Assembly (NCBI GenBank): GCA_964388035.1 | Contig: CAYLZE010000004.1 | Coordinates: forward strand, 1 to 64,000 | From: an uncultured archaeon | GTDB taxonomy: Archaea; Asgardarchaeota; Lokiarchaeia; Sigyniarchaeales; SOKP01 | Direction of reading: 5' to 3' | DNA: 64,000 nucleotides | Shown: positions 1,557 through 56,797 of the stretch, piece after piece | Numbering within the stretch: position 1 is the stretch's first letter | How the letters are laid out: each line of letters begins with the position of its first letter | Notes under the pieces: generated by a model | Database searches by the model: none | The model's input: only the letters and a program-made list of their open reading frames with translations | What the model was told of the DNA's origin: nothing | Translations under genes and position numbers: made by a program

Positions 1557-2747
1557 TTATTTCGCATATATTAATTGTGCACATTCTTTATAAAACTGGT
1601 TTCCAATCTCTATTTCAGATGGAACTTTTGAAATTTCTTCTTTCCCGCTCTTTTTTATATGAGTTCTTCTTGAGTCCATGAGGTCAACAAATGCTTCTAA
1701 GCGGGTCCGAAAACCTTCCATTCCAGAATGTTCGTCAAAAGAGAAGAAAATTACGGGGAGATCGTAAATTCCTTTAAGCTTATTGGTGATGATCGTTCGT
1801 GCCGTTACCTCTGGCATGCAAGTGAAGGGATATACATGTACAAATCCATCAAACCCGCTTCTTGCTCTGTCGATATATTCCCCAATAACCCAGACCGCCT
1901 CTCCACCAATATCCATTGGAATATAAGGATGGGATAAATGTTCTAACCACTTTCTGTGAAAATTTAAATGAAATTTATGAGAAACCCAGTCCCACAAACT
2001 CAAATTTTGATGAATTTCGCACCCTAATTCGCCCAATTTTTTCCTAATATCCAAATTTACATAAGTCTCCAAGCTAATATGGATTTCACCTGTGAGGGCA
2101 ACTTTAAAAGGTTTTTTAGTTTTATCAACATCAAGCTGATTGAAGTCGTCTTTAATAATAGTTTTAAAAGTACGTAAATCTTTCAAGTTATTGGTCTGAT
2201 CGAGTTTTATCAATAAATCTTTCACTACCTTTGTTGTATCTCCTTGATTTCGCTCGTATGCTCGAAAAATCCCTTCTGCTGTCTGGATATCGCTTAACAA
2301 TTTCGCTTTTTTCAGGAAAAAAATAACTGCTCTCAGCATGTTTGAGTAAAGAGCTAACGTGTTTTTTGGGGGAGATAATTCATAGAGCGTTTTTACCCAA
2401 TGAAATTCTAATAAGTCCGCTTGATCAAGGGGAATGATTCTAATATCTTTGTATCCGATATCCTTCAGAATTCTTTCTTGGGTTGCTTGATAAAATCCAA
2501 AACGGCATGGTCCGCAGTCAATCGCCATTACCAAGGTATCGGCCCCTTTTTTAATTGCATTTACGAAGTCCCCTAAGGTTGCTTTAAAAGGAAAACATAC
2601 AAATTCAGGGCTATGTTTAACGCCAATTCTAATTGCTTCGCGGTTTGTCGGATCGGGTAAAATAACTTCGATATTGGGGTCTAATGCTGTGAATAGCGTT
2701 TTGAAAGCGACCCAATTGGGGCCCATATTAGGAAAAGACAGTTTCAT
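1557..2747 (-). CDS. 2-hydroxyacyl-CoA dehydratase/reductase-related Fe-S subunit (PlsR-like)
   Basis: SPEFVCFPFKATLG, CGPCRFGFY, PFTCMPE, DEHSGMEGFRTRLEAFVDL; likely start at ATG 2747 (MKLSFPNMG) behind AGAGG. Confidence 0.85.
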   Translation of the reverse strand: MKLSFPNMGPNWVAFKTLFTALDPNIEVILPDPTNREAIRIGVKHSPEFVCFPFKATLGDFVNAIKKGADTLVMAIDCGPCRFGFYQATQERILKDIGYKDIRIIPLDQADLLEFHWVKTLYELSPPKNTLALYSNMLRAVIFFLKKAKLLSDIQTAEGIFRAYERNQGDTTKVVKDLLIKLDQTNNLKDLRTFKTIIKDDFNQLDVDKTKKPFKVALTGEIHISLETYVNLDIRKKLGELGCEIHQNLSLWDWVSHKFHLNFHRKWLEHLSHPYIPMDIGGEAVWVIGEYIDRARSGFDGFVHVYPFTCMPEVTARTIITNKLKGIYDLPVIFFSFDEHSGMEGFRTRLEAFVDLMDSRRTHIKKSGKEEISKVPSEIEIGNQFYKECAQLIYAK

Positions 2748-2926
2748 GCGTTCGAGTTCCTCTTTTTTCCACAAATTAGCTAATTATTTTACTATAGTTG
2801 CAAATGAATCAATCATTAAAATTTTGATTAGATGATTCATTTCACCAATAATAAAAATTGTTAATATAAAAAATTACCTAACTAAAACCGATGATTATTG
2901 ATATGGTTAGGAGAAGTAATTTTAAT

Positions 2927-3895
2927 TTATATTAAATCTTTAATGACGTCCTTGTAAAACTCTAATTGAGGATTCAGCTCAAAAGCGTTCGGAAAATACA
3001 TGAAAAAATTAGAAAATCCTAAATTTATAAATTCTTCCATAATTTGCCTTAAATTTTCACTGGTTCCAATTAAGAATTTATCTCGATAATGAGATAAGGT
3101 ACAATTTGGAGCAAGTGTTCTTTTCAAGTGATCATCGATTTTCTTTTTTTCCCAATTTATTATAACAGGACATAATAAGGTCTTTTCAATATTTTCATCA
3201 TCTCTATCACACTCCTTCGAGTATTCTTTTAAAGTAGCGAGTTTTTTCTTGAGATACTGAATGCCCTTGATGGCGTTAAAATTTGACTTGTCTGCATGCT
3301 TCGCAACTATTTTTAAGGTCAATTTTTCTCCTCCCCCTCCTATCAAAATTTTCGGCGGATTTTGAATGGGTTTGGGATAATTTAAAGCACCTTGTATTTG
3401 ATAATATTTTCCCATATAACTTGTTTCCTCCTCGGTCCACATTTTTTTAACAATTTCCACTGCTTCTTCTAACATTTCCAGTCTGATGGAATTCTTCAAA
3501 TAGGTATAACCAAATGAAGAGTATTCCCTTTCATGCCATCCCGCCCCGATTCCAAATTCCATTCTTCCATTAGATATAACATCTAAGACAGAGGAAATTT
3601 TCGCTAGATATGCAGGATTGCGGTAGGAATTACATGACACTAACTGTCCTAATCGAATTTTAGAGGTTATGGCTGCTAATGCTGTTAACGTGGTAAAGCA
3701 TTCAAACACGCTTTCTTTCATTTCTATGGGATAAGAATGAAAATGATCATATAATACCGCAGAATCATAGCCTAATTTTTCAACTTGCTGAGTGATTTTT
3801 GCTATTAATTTCCATTGATCATGGCTTTTCAATCCATCGGGCAAATCAAGACGCCATCCTTGAGGAACGATCATTCCGAACTTTAATTTCGTCAT
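2927..3895 (-). CDS. LLM-class (probably F420-dependent) oxidoreductase
   Basis: KFGMIVPQGWRLDL, YDHFH, RNPAYLAK, GIGAGWHEREY, IGGGGEKLTLKIVAKHAD. Confidence 0.9.
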   Translation of the reverse strand: MTKLKFGMIVPQGWRLDLPDGLKSHDQWKLIAKITQQVEKLGYDSAVLYDHFHSYPIEMKESVFECFTTLTALAAITSKIRLGQLVSCNSYRNPAYLAKISSVLDVISNGRMEFGIGAGWHEREYSSFGYTYLKNSIRLEMLEEAVEIVKKMWTEEETSYMGKYYQIQGALNYPKPIQNPPKILIGGGGEKLTLKIVAKHADKSNFNAIKGIQYLKKKLATLKEYSKECDRDDENIEKTLLCPVIINWEKKKIDDHLKRTLAPNCTLSHYRDKFLIGTSENLRQIMEEFINLGFSNFFMYFPNAFELNPQLEFYKDVIKDLI

Positions 3896-3952
3896 CTTCT
3901 AAAATCTACCTTCTCTAAACCTATAAAAAAGAGTAAAATGGTATAGTTGATA

Positions 3953-4792
3953 TTAATTCCATTGAAATTCTTTATTAAGATCTGCGGCCAGAGAGTTAAA
4001 CAATTCTTCATGAGCAGGTAAAAGTTCTTTTTTCCATCTCAGATCTAATTTAATTTCTAAAGGATGATCCACATAATATTGTCTCTGATGACCATTTAAT
4101 TGTAAATAAGTTAAATTTTGATTAACCTTGGTGATTAAGGATTGCGTACCCGTGTTACCTCCTAAAGGATGGTGCGTGAATCGATAATATTCCTCTAAAT
4201 TTGATTTGTAATTAATCTCAAGAAAATTACAAGTTTCCTTCGCTAACTTGGCGGGATTTGTGGCAAGTTCCTCATAGTGAATTTTCATTTTCTTACCATT
4301 AGACTCATTGAATAATTTATTTGTTAATTCTATTTGATTTTTCCAATCCTTGATTAATTGGATAACGTCCATGTCAGGATATTTTCTTATTCTTGAATTA
4401 ATTACTGCCCTTCCATCTCTTTGAATATAGATAAGGTATATTTCAGTTGAGTTTTTTTTAAGAATATCAATTTTTTCAGTTATCCATCTCGTATTTTTGG
4501 TTGAATCGATGATAATGGGTTTATTAGTAAGCCTTGAAAGTTGTTCATATAAATCGATTGAACCTTTTGGATCTACTCTGCTCCAAATAGGACAAGATGG
4601 TCCACATAACTTACATATTCCCGATTTCTTTCCATCGCTTGGTTTATTAATGAAGCGTGATTTATTTGCTTCCCCCGCATAAAAACAAGAAGAATGACTT
4701 CCTAAAATTAACCCTAATAGCGTGGATCCTGAATGACCTGCTCCACAAATGAAACATGTTTTCTCATTTGATCTTTCGGGTTTTTTAGTCAT
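3953..4792 (-). CDS. Sulfotransferase family protein
   Basis: 5'-PSB loop CGAGHSGSTLL, IIDSTK, RDGRAVINS 3'-PB motif, HYEELATNP. Confidence 0.85.
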   Translation of the reverse strand: MTKKPERSNEKTCFICGAGHSGSTLLGLILGSHSSCFYAGEANKSRFINKPSDGKKSGICKLCGPSCPIWSRVDPKGSIDLYEQLSRLTNKPIIIDSTKNTRWITEKIDILKKNSTEIYLIYIQRDGRAVINSRIRKYPDMDVIQLIKDWKNQIELTNKLFNESNGKKMKIHYEELATNPAKLAKETCNFLEINYKSNLEEYYRFTHHPLGGNTGTQSLITKVNQNLTYLQLNGHQRQYYVDHPLEIKLDLRWKKELLPAHEELFNSLAADLNKEFQWN

Positions 4793-15935: not shown

Positions 15936-16453
15936 GATTTTTATAAAAGAATGTTAGTGTGTAAATTATAAATCCTTTAAATTTCTTTAAAGCTTTAACT
16001 GTTTTGCTGATGTAATAGTTTTATATAAATCACCTCTTATATAAAGATTATTGAAATATTAACGAATTTGATTAATATGATCTCAGAAGTTGATTTTCCT
16101 CCATTAACTATTAGGAAAGGAAGTTTAGATGTAAAGGTGCATCAAAAATTCAAAATACTTTATTAAATTTTTATATAAATCAGAATCTAATACTTTTTTT
16201 AGGAATCTATTAGTATTAAAAAAGGAAAGGCAATATCACTTAAAGGTATAATTTAAGGATTTTAAAAGCTACAATGTTGCATATACTTATAATCCATGAC
16301 CTAATGTAAAAGAAAGCATTTTCCAACATTTTTCGATAAAATGCCTTGCTATCCTTGCAATATTGTATTTAATATAAAATTCAAGGAAAAAGAGGAAACG
16401 TATTTAAAATATGAATGCGATGGATAATTAACCATTAATTTAAATGATCAAAA

Positions 16454-17803
16454 ATGAAGAGTGAAAATGGTCTTATTGAACGAAAGAAAAGTAAAACAAG
16501 TAAATTCATCATTTTTGCGACGCCCTTTTATTCTACATCTCTCTTAATGGGCTTTGCAGACATTTCCTTGGCTACACTATACATCTTGGCATATCAAGTG
16601 CCCCCATTTTTCGTAGGCATTGCTTTAGGTATGGGAAAAATCACTATTGCTTTTTCAGAATTTTTCTTTGGATGGTTAAGTGACTCGAAATATACGCGGT
16701 GGGGAAGAAGAAAACCATATATAATTATTTTAAGTCCCATTCTTGGACTATCCTTCATATTACTCTTGCTACCCAGCCTCATAATTGATATCAACAATAT
16801 TGGTGCTGTTTTTATTTGGTTATTGGTCACATATCAACTTTTTAACTTGAGTTATGGAATTTCATCGCCATTTAATGCCTGGATGGTGGAACAATTTAGC
16901 ATAGATGAGCGTCCAAAAGCAGCCCAGTTTCAAACAATCTTTGATCTTTTCGGAGTGGGAACCATGTCCGTATTTTCCCTAATTATAATGACAGGTTTTA
17001 TTGCTAAAATTAAGGAGACTCCAGGATATGTTCCTCCGGATTTTTCCTATTCTGTTCTTGTATTTGGCATAATTTCGGTAATAATTTTCTATCTTGCTGC
17101 TATTTTAATGCCAACGGAACCCCATTTTAAAATTGAATCAACCATGTTCCAGTATTTAAAAATAGTACTCAAAAATAAAAATTTTTTAATAGTTACTTTA
17201 ATGATAGGGATTGCAAGTTTGGCTTGGGTGCAAGTTTCTTCCTTAATATTATTGTTTATTGAGGTAGTCTTAACTTTCGAGTCTACAACATACATTATTG
17301 CCGCCGTGATTTTTCTTTCAGGAATAATCGCTTTTTTGAGCTTATGGAGGAAGTTAATAGAAAAGTTTGGAAAAAAGAGAAGTCTTATATATGATATAAT
17401 CGCCGCTATTCTGTTTCTCCCATTAACGTTATTTGCTTTAATCCCCATGCAGTCCACCGTTATTTACGGAATCCTGTTTATATTAGGAATTTCAGGAATT
17501 ATCTCAGGGTGGCAGATTTTTCAATATATCATGATTCCGGACATTTCTGAAGATGATGAAAAGAAAACGGGTGAACTGAAAGCAGGTACTTTCAAGGGCT
17601 TTCCAAGCATACCCTTGAACTTCTTTCAAGCCATAGGGTTGATCATAATGGGAAGTGTATTGGAATTGCCAAGTATTACCGTAGGTACTTCTGCCTTTTC
17701 TATTGGTTATATCTTATGGGGACCAGTATGTTCTCTAATATTAATTGTTGCCCTAATTTATACCAAAAAATATGTTAAAATAGATTTCGAATGGGAAAAA
17801 TAA
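16454..17803 (+). CDS. MFS sugar transporter, GPH/MelB-like (paralogue 1)
   Basis: GWLSDSKYTRWGRRKPY, about 12 TMs, PDISEDDEKKTG. Confidence 0.9.
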   Translation: MKSENGLIERKKSKTSKFIIFATPFYSTSLLMGFADISLATLYILAYQVPPFFVGIALGMGKITIAFSEFFFGWLSDSKYTRWGRRKPYIIILSPILGLSFILLLLPSLIIDINNIGAVFIWLLVTYQLFNLSYGISSPFNAWMVEQFSIDERPKAAQFQTIFDLFGVGTMSVFSLIIMTGFIAKIKETPGYVPPDFSYSVLVFGIISVIIFYLAAILMPTEPHFKIESTMFQYLKIVLKNKNFLIVTLMIGIASLAWVQVSSLILLFIEVVLTFESTTYIIAAVIFLSGIIAFLSLWRKLIEKFGKKRSLIYDIIAAILFLPLTLFALIPMQSTVIYGILFILGISGIISGWQIFQYIMIPDISEDDEKKTGELKAGTFKGFPSIPLNFFQAIGLIIMGSVLELPSITVGTSAFSIGYILWGPVCSLILIVALIYTKKYVKIDFEWEK

Positions 17804-19405: not shown

Positions 19406-19591
19406 CTGATTTTGTAGTTAACCAAAAATCTCGTAATTTAGACAATTATGAGAATATTCTTCCGTGAAATTTAGAAGAAAGGTTTTATCGCCCAATAAGG
19501 TAGTTAAGTTAAGAATTTTCCATGATAAAAAAGTAACTTCTTAAAAAAACGAAGATAAAGGAGAATTAAAGAAATATAAAAATGATATCAA

Positions 19592-20578
19592 ATGAAGGAT
19601 GAAAGTAATATTATTCAACGACCTGCGAGTAAACCCAGCAAATTTGCACTTTTTGGGATGGTGGAGCAATTTCGAGTAGAGGAGCTGCCAAAAGCCGCGC
19701 AATTTCAAACCATTTTTGATCTTTTTGGAATTGGGACAATGAGCGTGTTCTCCCTAATTGTAATGACAGGTTTTATTTCAAATCTTATGATAAATCCCGG
19801 ATATGTTCCTCCGGATTTTTTCTATTCAGTGATTGTATTTGGCATTGTGTCAATAGTAGTTTTCTATATAGTCAGTTTTCTAATGCCAACGGAACCCCAT
19901 TTTAAAATTGAATCGACCATATTCCAATATTTGAAAGTCGTGCTTAAAAACAAGAATTTCATATCCGTCACGCTAATGGTAGGCATTGCAAGCTTAGGTT
20001 AGGCTCAAGTCTCTTCCTTAATCCTGTTATTCATTGAGGTCGTTTTAGATTTCGAATCAACAACCTATATCATTGCCGCTGTTATTTTTCTTTCAGGGAT
20101 AATCGCTTTTTTAAGCCTGTGGAGAGTTTTAATAAAAAATTTCGGGAAAAAAAGAAGTCTTTTATATGATCTGATTGCCGCGATACTATTTTTGCCTTTG
20201 ACATTATTGGCGCTGATTCCCATGCAGTCTACCCTTATTTACGGAATCTTTTTTATTCTCGGAATTGCCGGAATATACTCGGGATGGCAAATTCTCCAGT
20301 ACATAATGATACCCGATATATCTGAAGATGATGAAAAGAGAACGGGCGAATTGAAAGCAGATACTTTTAGAGGCATTCCCAGCATTCCGTTAAACATTTT
20401 TCAAGCGTGGGGATTGATTATGATGGGAGCTATATTAGAACTTCCAAGTATTAGTGTAGGTCCATCTGCCTTTTCGATTGGATATATTTTATGGAGTCCA
20501 ATTTGTTCCGTGATACTAATCGTAACGCTTCTTTATGCCAGAAAATATATAAAATTAGATTTTGAATGGGAAGAATAA
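19592..20578 (+). pseudogene. GPH/MelB-like MFS pseudogene (paralogue 2)
   Basis: In-frame deletion of 121 codons relative to 21029-22381 (KFALFG|MVEQF) and TGG>TAG nonsense at 20000-20002; the frame continues to 20578. Confidence 0.9.
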
Positions 20579-33889: not shown

Positions 33890-34762
33890 ATACAAGAAAC
33901 AATCTTAATTACGGGAGCTACAGGTAACGTTGGAGGTGAAGTGTTTCGCGAATTAGAAGATAGAGGAGCAAATGTTAGAGGTGCCGTGAGAAATTTTGAT
34001 AAGGCAGATAAATTGAAATTGAACAGGGATCATTTAGTATACTTTGATTATTCAAAACCCGAAACCTTCGAGGAAGCTTTCAGAGATATAAGTAGGGTAC
34101 TATTTATTGCACCACCTGGAGATCCGAATGCATATTCGCTCATTGTACCTGCAATAGATCATGCTATTAATGCAAAAGTAGATCAAATAGTAGTATTATC
34201 TGTATATGGTGCAGATAGAAGCGATGAAATTCCTCTAAGAAAGATAGAAAAACACGTGGAAACTTCAAGGATCCCCTACACCTTTATTCGACCGAACTTC
34301 TTTATGCAAAATTTTACTACAGGATTTCTTGCGGAGTTCCTAAAAACAGGTTCGATAATTCTTCCCGCAGGAGATGGTAAAACAAGTTTTATTGATGTGA
34401 GGGATATTGGAGAAGTCATCACAACAGTATTGACTGAAAAAGGGCACGAAAATAAAATATATAACATAACAGGTCCAGAAGCTTTAGACCACTATGAAGT
34501 TGCTTCACTTCTATCTGAATATTTGGACAAAGATATCAAATATAACCCTATTTCTGAAGATGCCATGAGAAAGGCTCTAAAAGCGCGAGGAACTCCTGAT
34601 GCCAGCATTGATTTTATGATTGGCTTGTACATACCCGTAAAAAATGGAAAGGACAAAAAGATTACGAAAGATGTTAAAAGAGTAATTGGAAGGAAACCGC
34701 GAAATTTTGAACAATTTTTAGAGGATTATACGAAAGATAAAATTCCTGCTATTGCTGCATGA
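33890..34762 (+). CDS. NmrA-like/atypical SDR NAD(P)-binding protein, probable ATA start
   Basis: Rossmann motif ILITGATGNVG lies upstream of the ORF-track GTG; there is no ATG/GTG/TTG between the in-frame TGA at 33845 and 33941; RPNFFMQN, IDVRDIG. Confidence 0.88.
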   Translation: MQETILITGATGNVGGEVFRELEDRGANVRGAVRNFDKADKLKLNRDHLVYFDYSKPETFEEAFRDISRVLFIAPPGDPNAYSLIVPAIDHAINAKVDQIVVLSVYGADRSDEIPLRKIEKHVETSRIPYTFIRPNFFMQNFTTGFLAEFLKTGSIILPAGDGKTSFIDVRDIGEVITTVLTEKGHENKIYNITGPEALDHYEVASLLSEYLDKDIKYNPISEDAMRKALKARGTPDASIDFMIGLYIPVKNGKDKKITKDVKRVIGRKPRNFEQFLEDYTKDKIPAIAA

Positions 34763-55509: not shown

Positions 55510-56797
55510 ATGCAAGAAAAAATAATTGATGATAATATTCACGAGAGAATGTCCTTAGAAAACGTGTTCAAGATATTCAATGATAATATCTTTCCAATGC
55601 TTAATGAAGAAGAGCGCGGGTATTGCAATGAACTTCAACAATTTTGCTTGGAACTGCAGCCACGGATTGATAAATCAAAAGACGTGTATGAATTATTTCC
55701 GGATTTAGGAAAAAATGGTTATATGCAGAGAATCAATTTATGGCAAGATTTCACTCCTTATGGCATGAAGAAAGAAATCCTCCTAGGAACGCACTTGTCT
55801 CTTTTAGATCCTCAGTTGGAATTAGCACGCTTGGCGAGTGGTATTCTTTGTGGCAATCCTACATTCCATTATTATCGACACGGTGGTACCGGAGATACGA
55901 TTCAGAAAGTTCAAGATGAGTTAATGTCTGGTGCAAAAATAGGGTGCATAGGAATAACTGAACCGAAAAGAGGGTCTGACGCTGTAAATATGACAACTAC
56001 ATGTATAAAGTCAGATGATGGAATAATTTATAACGGAGAGAAGGTCTATACAACTAATGGGCCTAAAGCGGATTATTTCTGTACTTATGCCGTATACGAT
56101 ACTGAACATCCTCGAGAAACCATGGTTCAAGCCATGATTAAGCGAGAATTCGGAGTGAGAACAGAAAGACTTAAAATAAATTCCGTTCCCCGAGTGCATA
56201 TTGCTCATACAATTATAAAAGATGTTAGGATTCCTCAAGAATATATTCTAGCTGATAATGGTGATGGCTATGTTCGTTTATTTGAAGGGTTGGTTCCTGA
56301 ACGGTTAGGTATAAGTGCTTAGTGGTCTCCACTCACTACCAAATATGGGTTCAGGAATTGGAATTGCATGGGCAGGATTGATTTATGGTATTATTTATAC
56401 GAATTTAAGGAGACAATTTGGCCAAGAAGTAATAAAATATGAAGGCGTGGGATTTGGACTGGCAGAATTGCTCTCAAAATGTACCGCAGCAACTTCCCTA
56501 GCACTGCAAGCCGCTACGATTTACGATGAGAAAGTATTATTCTCAGAGCGTCCTAATAAAGAAGCAGAAAAATGGGTTGCGGCAGTATCATCCCAAGGTA
56601 AGTATTATGTTTCAAAACTTACTCACGATGTATGCTATGAAGTTCAGCAGCACATGGGTGGAGTATCCGTCACGGATAATACTCCCGTAGATGAACTCAT
56701 GGATACGAGCAAGATCGAAGAAGTAATTGGCGGAGCTCGTAACATCCAATTGTTTATAATACAAAACCTCTTGCGTAGGTATAAGAATATTTTATAA
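55510..56797 (+). CDS. Acyl-CoA dehydrogenase, split into two frames by a 31-nt insert
   Basis: GCIGITEPKRGSDA, NGEKVYTTNG, ERLGI|MGSGIGIA, RRQFGQ, QQHMGG, EVIGGARNIQ; removing 31 nt gives a single ORF. Confidence 0.88.
56313..56343 (+). other. Candidate bulge-helix-bulge (EndA-type) mRNA intron, 31 nt
   Basis: Insert aagtgcttagtggtctccactcactaccaaa forms a hairpin; flanking exon sequences TTCCTGAAC/GTTCAGGAA pair perfectly; excision restores the frame. Confidence 0.5.

What the first reader, a model, noticed from the sequence alone, without database searches (positions are those of the whole stretch)
56294..56357. Candidate bulge-helix-bulge intron inside a protein-coding (acyl-CoA dehydrogenase) gene
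Seen: the gene is split by a 31-nt insert that carries the stop codon. Removing it gives ...GAA CGG TTA GGT AT|T ATG GGT TCA GGA ATT GGA ATT GCA = ERLGIMGSGIGIA, matching the ACAD helix spacing xRxxIAAQALGIA. No other lesion is visible. The insert is a hairpin (AGTG/CACT, AGTGG-tct-CCACT), and the two exon flanks pair perfectly over 9 bp (TTCCTGAAC 56294-56302 / GTTCAGGAA 56349-56357). Between them are two 3-nt bulges around a central helix. Register A (AGGT/ACCA, one A.A mismatch; bulges ATA and AAT) cut after the second bulge base releases exactly 31 nt and restores the frame. The stricter register B (GGTA/TACC; bulges TAA and AAA) would release 29 nt and not restore it, which is a real caveat or a possible regulatory switch. 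Established: archaeal EndA cuts BHB motifs, and mRNA introns of this type are known mainly from crenarchaeal cbf5. One in an Asgard metabolic gene would be notable. Alternative: an inactivating hairpin insertion with a TAT duplication (34 nt).
Basis: partly seen in the sequence, partly recalled or inferred. Interest (0 to 1): 0.86.

Follow-up and report, generated by a model that had tools for sequence, protein, structure and literature searches.

The report
tRNA-type mini-intron in Asgard ACAD gene
A 31-base hairpin that breaks an acyl-CoA dehydrogenase gene of an Asgard (Loki-type) archaeon is very probably a true intron that the tRNA-splicing enzymes cut out of the messenger RNA, a kind of splicing that the papers I could search confirm inside an archaeal coding sequence only for one gene (cbf5).

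Summary
The ACAD gene (55510-56797, +) is split into 270-aa and 150-aa reading frames by an insert that occurs once in the 5.47-Mb genome. Removing 56313-56343 (31 nt) restores ...ERLGIMGSG..., the sequence of all 11 intact orthologues I read.

Six other alleles from independent metagenomes and MAGs carry an insert at the same codon. These inserts are 33 nt, in frame, and carry a TAA or TGA stop.

- The structure has 98% of cells paired and 5 compensatory pairs.
- The exon bases that pair are 94-100% identical in intron-bearing alleles, against about 75-80% in neighbouring exon sequence and in intron-less alleles.
- Both exons are under strong purifying selection.
- The genome encodes two EndA paralogues and RtcB.
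- A motif-independent census found two more 30-nt BHB inserts, in an E2 gene and in an FGGY kinase gene.

No RNA data were available, so splicing is inferred. In this allele the central helix has an A.A mismatch, and register B (29 nt, out of frame) is about as stable as register A.

Earlier notes of this scan report the same kind of intron in this genome and in other Asgard genomes. The papers I could search confirm it only for cbf5.

The parts
55510..56312 (+). Exon 1 of the acyl-CoA dehydrogenase gene: 267 codons plus the first two bases of the Ile codon.
   Evidence: ORF and Pfam Acyl-CoA_dh_M match. It is 87% identical to residues 1-268 of intact 418-aa orthologues.
56313..56343 (+). 31-nt BHB mini-intron. 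It carries the in-frame TAG at 56320-22 and shifts the frame by +1.
   Evidence: Removing it restores ERLGIMGSG, as in 11 intact orthologues. It occurs once in the genome. The same site is occupied in six other alleles.
56344..56797 (+). Exon 2: the last base of the Ile codon, 150 codons and the TAA stop.
   Evidence: ORF and Pfam Acyl-CoA_dh_1 match. It is 89% identical to the C-terminal part of the orthologue.
56294..56302 (+). 5' strand of the 9-bp exon-exon helix (outer part of h).
   Evidence: It pairs 9 of 9 with 56349-57. Intron-bearing alleles pair 8-9 of 9; intron-less orthologues pair 3-8 of 9.
56349..56357 (+). 3' strand of the exon-exon helix.
   Evidence: Same evidence as the 5' strand. 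The 14-nt 3' exon core is 100% identical in all 7 intron-bearing alleles.
56307..56310 (+). Central helix H, 5' strand (AGGT, exonic).
   Evidence: It pairs with 56338-41 as A.A, G-C, G-C, U-A. The other alleles pair 4 of 4, counting G.U.
56311..56313 (+). 5' bulge AUA. The predicted cut is after 56312.
   Evidence: The register is fixed by the Ile codon and by the T/A/G variation of the third bulge base across alleles.
56314..56337 (+). Intron hairpin: h' is AGUG 56314-17 with CACU 56334-37; the apical stem is 56321-25 with 56329-33; the loop is 56326-28.
   Evidence: Fold. Three compensatory pairs in h' and two in the apical stem.
56338..56341 (+). Central helix H, 3' strand (ACCA, intronic).
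56342..56344 (+). 3' bulge AAU. The predicted cut is after 56343.
   Evidence: The first exon-2 base is T or A in all alleles, which completes ATT or ATA (Ile).

Best explanation
The insert is a bulge-helix-bulge (tRNA-type) intron in the pre-mRNA of an acyl-CoA dehydrogenase.

Proposed mechanism:
- In the transcript the two exon ends pair through the 9-bp helix 56294-302 with 56349-357, and the intron folds into a hairpin.
- This presents a 4-position central helix (56307-10 with 56338-41) flanked by two 3-nt bulges on opposite strands.
- The heteromeric splicing endonuclease EndA cuts after the second base of each bulge, that is after 56312 and after 56343.
- RtcB joins the exons to read GGU AU|U AUG. 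The 31-nt intron is released, probably as a circle.
- The spliced mRNA encodes a 418-aa enzyme. Ribosomes on unspliced RNA would stop at UAG 56320-22.

Shown: the sequence anatomy, the conservation of the site and structure across alleles, selection on both exons, and the presence of the enzymes.

Inferred: the cleavage and ligation themselves, the exact cut positions in this allele, and circularisation.
For: 1. Only removal of 31 nt at 56313-43, or the equivalent 56314-44, restores the ERLGIMGSG of all 11 intact orthologues and the 418-aa length.
2. Seven distinct alleles from independent assemblies are interrupted at the same codon. The window allele has 31 nt out of frame with TAG; five alleles have 33 nt in frame with TAA; one has 33 nt in frame with TGA. 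So neither frameshifting nor readthrough explains all of them, while one BHB register gives Gly-Ile-Met in all.
3. On the 7-allele alignment 98% of cells are paired and 5 pairs change on both sides, which 0 of 500 shuffles reach. With the partners slid, only 28-54% are paired.
4. The exon bases next to the intron are 94% (20-nt 5' core) and 100% (14-nt 3' core) identical among intron-bearing alleles. The adjoining 60 nt are 75-80% identical, and intron-less alleles are 75-79% identical everywhere.
5. Third-codon identity between the lineages is 45-55%, which is saturated, yet the introns are 79-97% identical. dN/dS is 0.01-0.05 in both exons where it can be computed, so these are not pseudogenes.
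6. Machinery: two EndA-domain ORFs (205 and 207 aa), which fits an alpha-beta enzyme, and one RtcB. Published work assigns Asgard archaea the (alpha-beta)2 type with the L1 loop linked to broad specificity (PMC5829648). tRNA genes in this genome are heavily interrupted: aragorn of 22 with an intron, many of 23-36 nt.
7. A census that did not use the motif (split ORF pairs that match one paralogue continuously) found two more 30-nt stop-bearing inserts in this genome. One splits a UQ_con domain and one splits an FGGY_N domain. Each has H 4/4 and a 9-bp h' at the frame-restoring register.
8. ACAD genes of relatives carry BHB inserts at other positions: the G010 orthologue (30 nt) and a G017 paralogue (36 nt).
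Against: - There is no RNA evidence. No spliced-form protein identical to an intron-bearing allele was found in the protein collection.
- In the window allele the central helix has only 3 standard pairs plus an A.A mismatch.
- The helix next to the 3' bulge is one U-A pair followed by a 3x3 internal loop before the 9-bp helix, so the motif is relaxed rather than canonical.
- Register B has 4 of 4 Watson-Crick pairs, is about as stable, and would give a 29-nt out-of-frame product.
- The window allele itself is seen in one assembly only.
- Exon 2 begins with a conserved ATG, so a two-polypeptide enzyme cannot be excluded.
- My motif-only genome scan showed no excess over a mirror-image decoy.
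- Relaxed BHB motifs are common by chance (bioRxiv 10.64898/2026.10.13.758758).
Confidence: 0.84

Rival explanations
1. Split gene. The insert is a fixed intergenic spacer, and the enzyme is made as two polypeptides (270 aa and 150 aa, the second starting at the conserved Met) that assemble without splicing.
For: Every allele has a stop inside the insert and an ATG directly after it. Both halves are under purifying selection.
Against: A spacer would not need a conserved BHB geometry, compensatory pairs, or synonymous-site constraint on the adjoining exon bases. The break lies inside a conserved helix motif, two residues after ER, and not between domains. The ATG is simply the Met of the intact protein. 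I saw no Shine-Dalgarno-like motif in the insert by eye.
Confidence: 0.07
2. Pseudogene. A hairpin-forming insertion, possibly with a TAT target duplication, inactivated the gene, and the BHB likeness is chance.
For: In the window allele TAT flanks the 31 nt on both sides. The motif here is relaxed, and relaxed motifs are frequent by chance (bioRxiv 10.64898/2026.10.13.758758).
Against: There is no other lesion in either exon of any of the 7 alleles. dN/dS is 0.01-0.05 with saturated dS. The insert is conserved far above synonymous sites. The other alleles have no TAT duplication. The insert has no second copy in the genome.
Confidence: 0.04
3. Translational recoding: ribosomal bypassing (hopping) or frameshifting across the hairpin, without RNA cleavage.
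For: A stable hairpin and a nearby stop recall T4 gene 60 (my own knowledge).
Against: There are no matching take-off and landing codons: ATA or ATT against AAT or AAA (reading). The inserts are 31 nt out of frame in one allele and 33 nt in frame in six, so no single frameshift rule fits. Readthrough would add 11 residues inside a conserved helix.
Confidence: 0.03
4. Assembly or sequencing artefact in this MAG.
For: The window allele comes from a single assembly. The MAG has an estimated contamination of 7%.
Against: Inserts at the same site occur in many independent assemblies from ENA, JGI and NCBI. A structured 31-nt insertion is not a typical assembly error.
Confidence: 0.02

Closest known systems
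BHB intron in the cbf5 (pseudouridine synthase) pre-mRNA of Desulfurococcales and Sulfolobales (Watanabe 2002; Yoshinari 2006; Yokobori 2009, PMC2738675)
   Same: Both are short EndA-type introns inside a protein-coding sequence. Both often have a relaxed cleavage motif. In both, the host has a hetero-oligomeric EndA. Both have a patchy distribution that implies gain and loss, and both must be removed for a functional protein.
   Different: The gene differs (a metabolic acyl-CoA dehydrogenase), and so does the phylum (Asgard/Promethearchaeota). Here splicing is inferred, not shown. The same genome and its relatives carry several such introns in unrelated genes, whereas cbf5 is an isolated case.
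Non-canonical tRNA introns of Asgard archaea and Thermoproteales (PMC11291895; bioRxiv 10.64898/2026.10.13.758758)
   Same: The motif is the same (two 3-nt bulges around a 4-bp helix). The size is about the same (roughly 20-40 nt). The presumed enzymes are the same (EndA alpha-beta, RtcB). Gain and loss are similarly frequent.
   Different: The host RNA is an mRNA. The exon half of the motif must be built from codons, which shows up as synonymous-site constraint. Mis-cutting by one base destroys the reading frame.
BHB-dependent processing of archaeal rRNA precursors and a Haloferax 5' UTR (PMC7714728)
   Same: EndA acts on a BHB outside tRNA.
   Different: Those sites do not interrupt a coding sequence.

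Membership tests
Archaeal bulge-helix-bulge (EndA-type) intron | [quoted passage not shown] | tested here: met
   The geometry is met in all 7 alleles. The central helix has 4 of 4 pairs (counting G.U) in six alleles, and 3 pairs plus an A.A mismatch in the window allele, which makes that one relaxed.
Archaeal bulge-helix-bulge (EndA-type) intron | At least one flanking helix (h or h') of 2 or more contiguous pairs next to a bulge. | tested here: met
   h' has 4 bp in the window allele (AGUG/CACU) and 3-5 bp in the others. h is non-canonical: one U-A pair, a 3x3 internal loop, then 9 bp.
Archaeal bulge-helix-bulge (EndA-type) intron | Cuts after the second base of each bulge give the exact mature junction. 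| tested here: met
   These cuts give Gly-Ile-Met, as in 11 intact orthologues, in all 7 alleles. The third bulge base varies T/A/G. This was tested by comparison, not on RNA.
Archaeal bulge-helix-bulge (EndA-type) intron | The host encodes the splicing endonuclease and the RtcB ligase. | tested here: met
   Two PF01974 ORFs (100.7 and 69.8 bits) and one PF01139 ORF (552.7 bits) in the window's own genome.
Archaeal bulge-helix-bulge (EndA-type) intron | Excision and exon ligation observed, in vivo or in vitro. | not testable with these tools
   No RNA reads were available. No spliced-form protein was found in the collection.
cbf5 pre-mRNA intron family | Located in the cbf5 gene of Crenarchaeota. 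| tested here: not met
   The host gene is an acyl-CoA dehydrogenase. The relatives are Promethearchaeota/Lokiarchaeia. It works like the cbf5 intron but is not a member of that family.
Miniature transposable element or insertion with target duplication | Several copies in the genome, and a target-site duplication shared by all carriers. | tested here: not met
   The genome has a single copy. The TAT repeat occurs only in the window allele.
Group I or group II intron, or another known RNA family | Match to a known ribozyme or RNA family. | tested here: not met
   Rfam gives no match at E <= 1 in 56100-56550. A 31-nt insert is far too short for a ribozyme intron.
Programmed translational bypass (T4 gene 60 type) | Matching take-off and landing codons that flank the gap. 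| tested here: not met
   The codon pairs are ATA/AAT in the window allele and ATT/AAA in the L013 allele (reading).

The most novel reading that the evidence does not exclude
This intron may be one visible member of a lineage-wide population of EndA-spliced mini-introns in Asgard mRNAs. These would be repeatedly gained, lost or moved between alleles.

Five lineages share an almost invariant 33-nt sequence although their synonymous sites are saturated. That points to a role beyond merely being removable. Candidates are a functional circular RNA, a protein-binding site, splicing-controlled dosage of the enzyme (including a productive register A against a non-productive register B), or intron mobility by short-tract gene conversion.
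Probability: 0.3. Interest if true: 0.88.

Novelty: new member of a known kind. Interest (0 to 1): 0.68.

Why it matters
Endonuclease-spliced introns inside archaeal coding sequences are experimentally confirmed in print for one gene only, cbf5 of Crenarchaeota. The 2009 paper says that others were merely predicted (PMC2738675).

Here an ordinary metabolic gene of an Asgard archaeon, the closest prokaryotic relatives of eukaryotes, carries such an intron. The evidence for function is comparative: site conservation, covariation, and codon-level constraint on the exon half of the motif. Further examples occur in the same genome and in relatives.

If RNA data confirm it:
- Gene callers systematically mis-annotate these genes as split or broken.
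- Asgard cells must coordinate mRNA splicing with translation without a nucleus.
- The patchy presence among alleles that are about 95% identical offers a tractable system for studying intron gain and loss.

Tried and rejected
1. Motif-only genome scan. I searched for a BHB whose removal merges two long ORFs, at five stringencies, against a mirror-image decoy with the same number of pairs. There was no enrichment (for example 84 against 67, 11 against 11; the first attempt timed out). Junctions between adjacent genes swamp the signal, so this scan says nothing either way. I replaced it with the paralogue-continuity census.
2. Search for a spliced product. I looked for full-length proteins identical to the intron-bearing alleles among the hits and cluster members. 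The nearest intact proteins are 95-97% identical, so they come from other strains.
3. Dispersed-repeat or MITE reading. Rejected, because the insert has a single copy.
4. The 34-nt excision (cuts one base earlier on the 5' side and two later on the 3' side). It restores the frame but deletes the invariant Ile, so I rejected it (reasoning).
5. Truncated relatives P0041 and P0068 as possible further intron positions. P0041 is cut off by a neighbouring DHH gene, and no DNA was available for P0068.
6. Rfam search gave nothing.
7. Most of the 28 census candidates are single in-frame stops (TGA or TAG), frameshifts or adjacent genes, not inserts.

Full report
**Observation.** An acyl-CoA dehydrogenase gene on the + strand is broken. 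ORF1 (55510-56322, 270 aa) matches the ACAD middle domain. ORF2 (ATG 56345 to 56797, 150 aa) matches the ACAD C-terminal domain and lies in the +1 frame.

Between the two ORFs lies a hairpin with the stems AGTG/CACT and AGTGG-tct-CCACT. TTCCTGAAC (56294-302) pairs perfectly with GTTCAGGAA (56349-357). The predicted minimum-energy and centroid folds contain this outer helix, the GGU/ACC core, a 3-nt AUA bulge and the hairpin. The z-score against shuffles is only -1.74.

The genome is 5.47 Mb, 33% G+C, in 211 contigs. The 31-nt and 46-nt inserts have no second copy in it, so the dispersed-repeat refutation fails.

**What the intact gene looks like.** All 40 relatives searched have this gene. The best matches are 418-435-aa open frames. 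The 11 orthologous loci I read all encode FEGLVPERL(G/S)IMGSG. Named relatives are Promethearchaeota/Lokiarchaeia MAGs.

In the window, only removal of 31 nt (56313-43, or the equivalent 56314-44) gives ...ERLGIMGSG... and a 418-aa product. A 34-nt removal would also restore the frame but would delete the invariant Ile.

**The same site is occupied elsewhere.** The protein search returned other 270-aa forms. Their contigs, and a degenerate-pattern scan of metagenome and genome collections, gave six more distinct alleles with an insert at exactly this codon: L013, L019, L024, L025/L027, L026 and L028-34. They come from ENA, JGI and NCBI assemblies with different gene neighbourhoods.

Their inserts are 33 nt, in frame, and carry TAA (five alleles) or TGA (L019). 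The window's insert is 31 nt, out of frame, and carries TAG. No frameshift or readthrough rule covers all of them. Excision does.

**Register.** A BHB has a 4-bp helix with a 3-nt bulge on its 3' side on each strand, cut after the second bulge base. This is my own knowledge, and it agrees with the description in bioRxiv 10.64898/2026.10.13.758758.

- Window allele: H is AGGU/ACCA, with bulges AUA and AAU.
- L013 type: H is AGGU/GCUU, with bulges AUU (also AUA, AUG) and AAA.
- L019: H is AGGC/GCUU, with bulges AUU and AAU.

The third base of the 5' bulge is T, A or G in different alleles. If the cut fell one base later, L028 would encode Met in place of the invariant Ile. This fixes the 5' cut after GG(U/C)AU. 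The first base of exon 2 is then U or A, which completes AUU or AUA.

**Is the structure more than chance?** A recent preprint warns that relaxed BHB motifs arise by chance at most boundaries, so I tested three things.

- *Shuffling.* I shuffled the insert while keeping the exons, and allowed both frame-restoring registers. Only 0.6% (window) and 0.3% (L013) of shuffles reached the observed central helix plus a 4-bp h'.
- *Covariation.* On the 7-allele alignment, 98% of pair cells are standard pairs and 5 pairs change on both sides, which 0 of 500 shuffles reach. Sliding the partners by 1-3 columns drops pairing to 28-54%. The sample is small and the structure was derived from these sequences, so this is support, not proof.
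- *Exon constraint.* The exon half of the motif is constrained only where an intron is present. The 20-nt and 14-nt exon cores are 94% and 100% identical among intron-bearing alleles. The adjoining 60 nt are 75-80% identical, and intron-less alleles are 75-79% identical throughout. The 9-bp exon-exon helix has 8-9 pairs in intron-bearing alleles and 3-8 in intron-less ones. The coding sequence (Pro-Glu ... Ser-Gly) already provides partial complementarity, which may have predisposed the site.

**Not a pseudogene.** Third-codon identity between the intron-bearing lineages is 45-55%, which is saturated, yet none of the 7 alleles has any other lesion. dN/dS is 0.01-0.05 for both exons where dS can be computed. 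The introns themselves are 79-97% identical.

On a tree of 145 orthologues, the 8 intron-bearing rows are scattered within one 76-row clade, next to intron-less proteins that are 95-97% identical. Well-supported branches force at least 4 gains or losses (a FastTree tree, so only indicative). The window's nearest relatives, including the same-genus genome G001, lack the intron.

**Machinery and context.**
- The genome encodes two EndA-domain ORFs of 205 and 207 aa and one RtcB.
- Published work assigns Asgard archaea the (alpha-beta)2 EndA with the L1 loop that is linked to broad substrate range (PMC5829648).
- Published work also reports that most Asgard tRNA genes are interrupted (PMC11291895).
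- Here aragorn finds only 22 tRNA genes, 15 of them with an intron.

**Other introns found here.** I ran a census that ignored the motif. It looked for adjacent same-strand ORFs whose ends match one paralogue continuously. Besides this ACAD, it found two 30-nt stop-bearing inserts in the same genome. One splits a ubiquitin-conjugating (UQ_con) domain on contig C38. The other splits an FGGY_N kinase domain on contig C149. Each has a 4/4 central helix and a 9-bp h' at the frame-restoring register.

In relatives, the G010 orthologue has a 30-nt BHB insert near residue 118. A G017 paralogue has a 36-nt BHB insert.

**Caveats.**
- Splicing is inferred. No RNA data were available, and no spliced-form protein was found.
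- In the window allele H contains an A.A mismatch, and the helix beside the 3' bulge is a single U-A pair followed by a 3x3 internal loop.
- Register B (GGUA/UACC) is as stable as register A, -20.9 against -21.1 kcal/mol, and would give a 29-nt out-of-frame product. Some mis-splicing, or regulation through register choice, is possible.
- My motif-only genome scan showed no excess over a mirror decoy.
- The near-invariance of the 33-nt intron across lineages with saturated synonymous sites is not fully explained. Structural constraint accounts for the stems but not for the invariant loop and internal-bulge bases. Short-tract lateral transfer remains possible.

**Comparison with known systems and verdict.** The closest known system is the cbf5 pre-mRNA intron of Crenarchaeota. 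According to PMC2738675, that was the only confirmed case, and other cases were only predicted. My searches found tRNA-intron papers for Asgard archaea but none on introns in their protein-coding genes.

Earlier notes of this scan describe the same kind of intron in this genome and in other Asgard genomes. I treated them as leads. My census recovered the E2 case without using the BHB motif.

I file the finding as a new member of a known kind, an EndA-type mRNA intron, with confidence 0.84 that the 31 nt are spliced out.

Noticed in passing
window 19586-20575 (+), with TAG at 20000-20002; paralogue at window 16448-17800: An MFS-type transporter gene has a single in-frame TAG and no extra bases. 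Its tandem paralogue, 76-88% identical, has Trp at that position (..IASLAW.. against ..IASLG*..). This is probably a TGG-to-TAG nonsense mutation or a readthrough site.
   Followed up: partly
G000 contig C38, about 34119-34676 (+); intron 34333-34362 (locus L038): A ubiquitin-conjugating enzyme (UQ_con) gene is split by a 30-nt TAG-bearing insert with a canonical BHB: H is CTCC/GGAG, h' is 9 bp, and the bulges are ATT and AAA. The Pfam profile positions 19-62 and 67-139 fall on the two halves.
   Followed up: yes
G000 contig C149, minus strand, plus-strand coordinates about 2465-4054 (locus L039): An FGGY-family carbohydrate kinase gene is split inside FGGY_N (profile 1-81 and 79-245) by a 30-nt TAA-bearing insert. 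H is AACC/GGTT and h' is 9 bp.
   Followed up: yes
L020 (G010:C2:20000-23000, minus strand) and L021 (G017:C4:214500-217500, about 1255-1300): The ACAD orthologue of relative G010 carries a 30-nt BHB insert with TAA near residue 118 (h GGAA/TTCC, H TCCT/AGGA). An ACAD paralogue of G017 carries a 36-nt BHB insert (H GGCT/AGCT, h' 7 bp). A G019 paralogue (L022) also has an in-frame TAA, which I did not examine.
   Followed up: partly
G000 contigs C32 (about 2563), C45 (about 2720), C57 (minus strand) and the far end of C4 (minus strand, outside the window): Four paralogues of a protein of about 680 aa have an in-frame TGA. It lies in the motif FPT-x-DC-x-x-[TGA], at the position where another paralogue has Cys. 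This looks like selenocysteine in HdrA-like proteins.
   Followed up: no
whole genome G000: Aragorn finds only 22 tRNA genes in a genome estimated at 97% complete. Fifteen of them have an intron, mostly of 23-36 nt. This suggests many heavily interrupted tRNA genes that escape detection.
   Followed up: no
L013, L024, L025, L026, L028 (the intron-bearing alleles): The 33-nt intron is 94-97% identical across these lineages, although their third-codon positions are only 45-55% identical. Only the third bulge base and the first loop base vary. This is more conservation than base pairing alone explains.
   Followed up: partly
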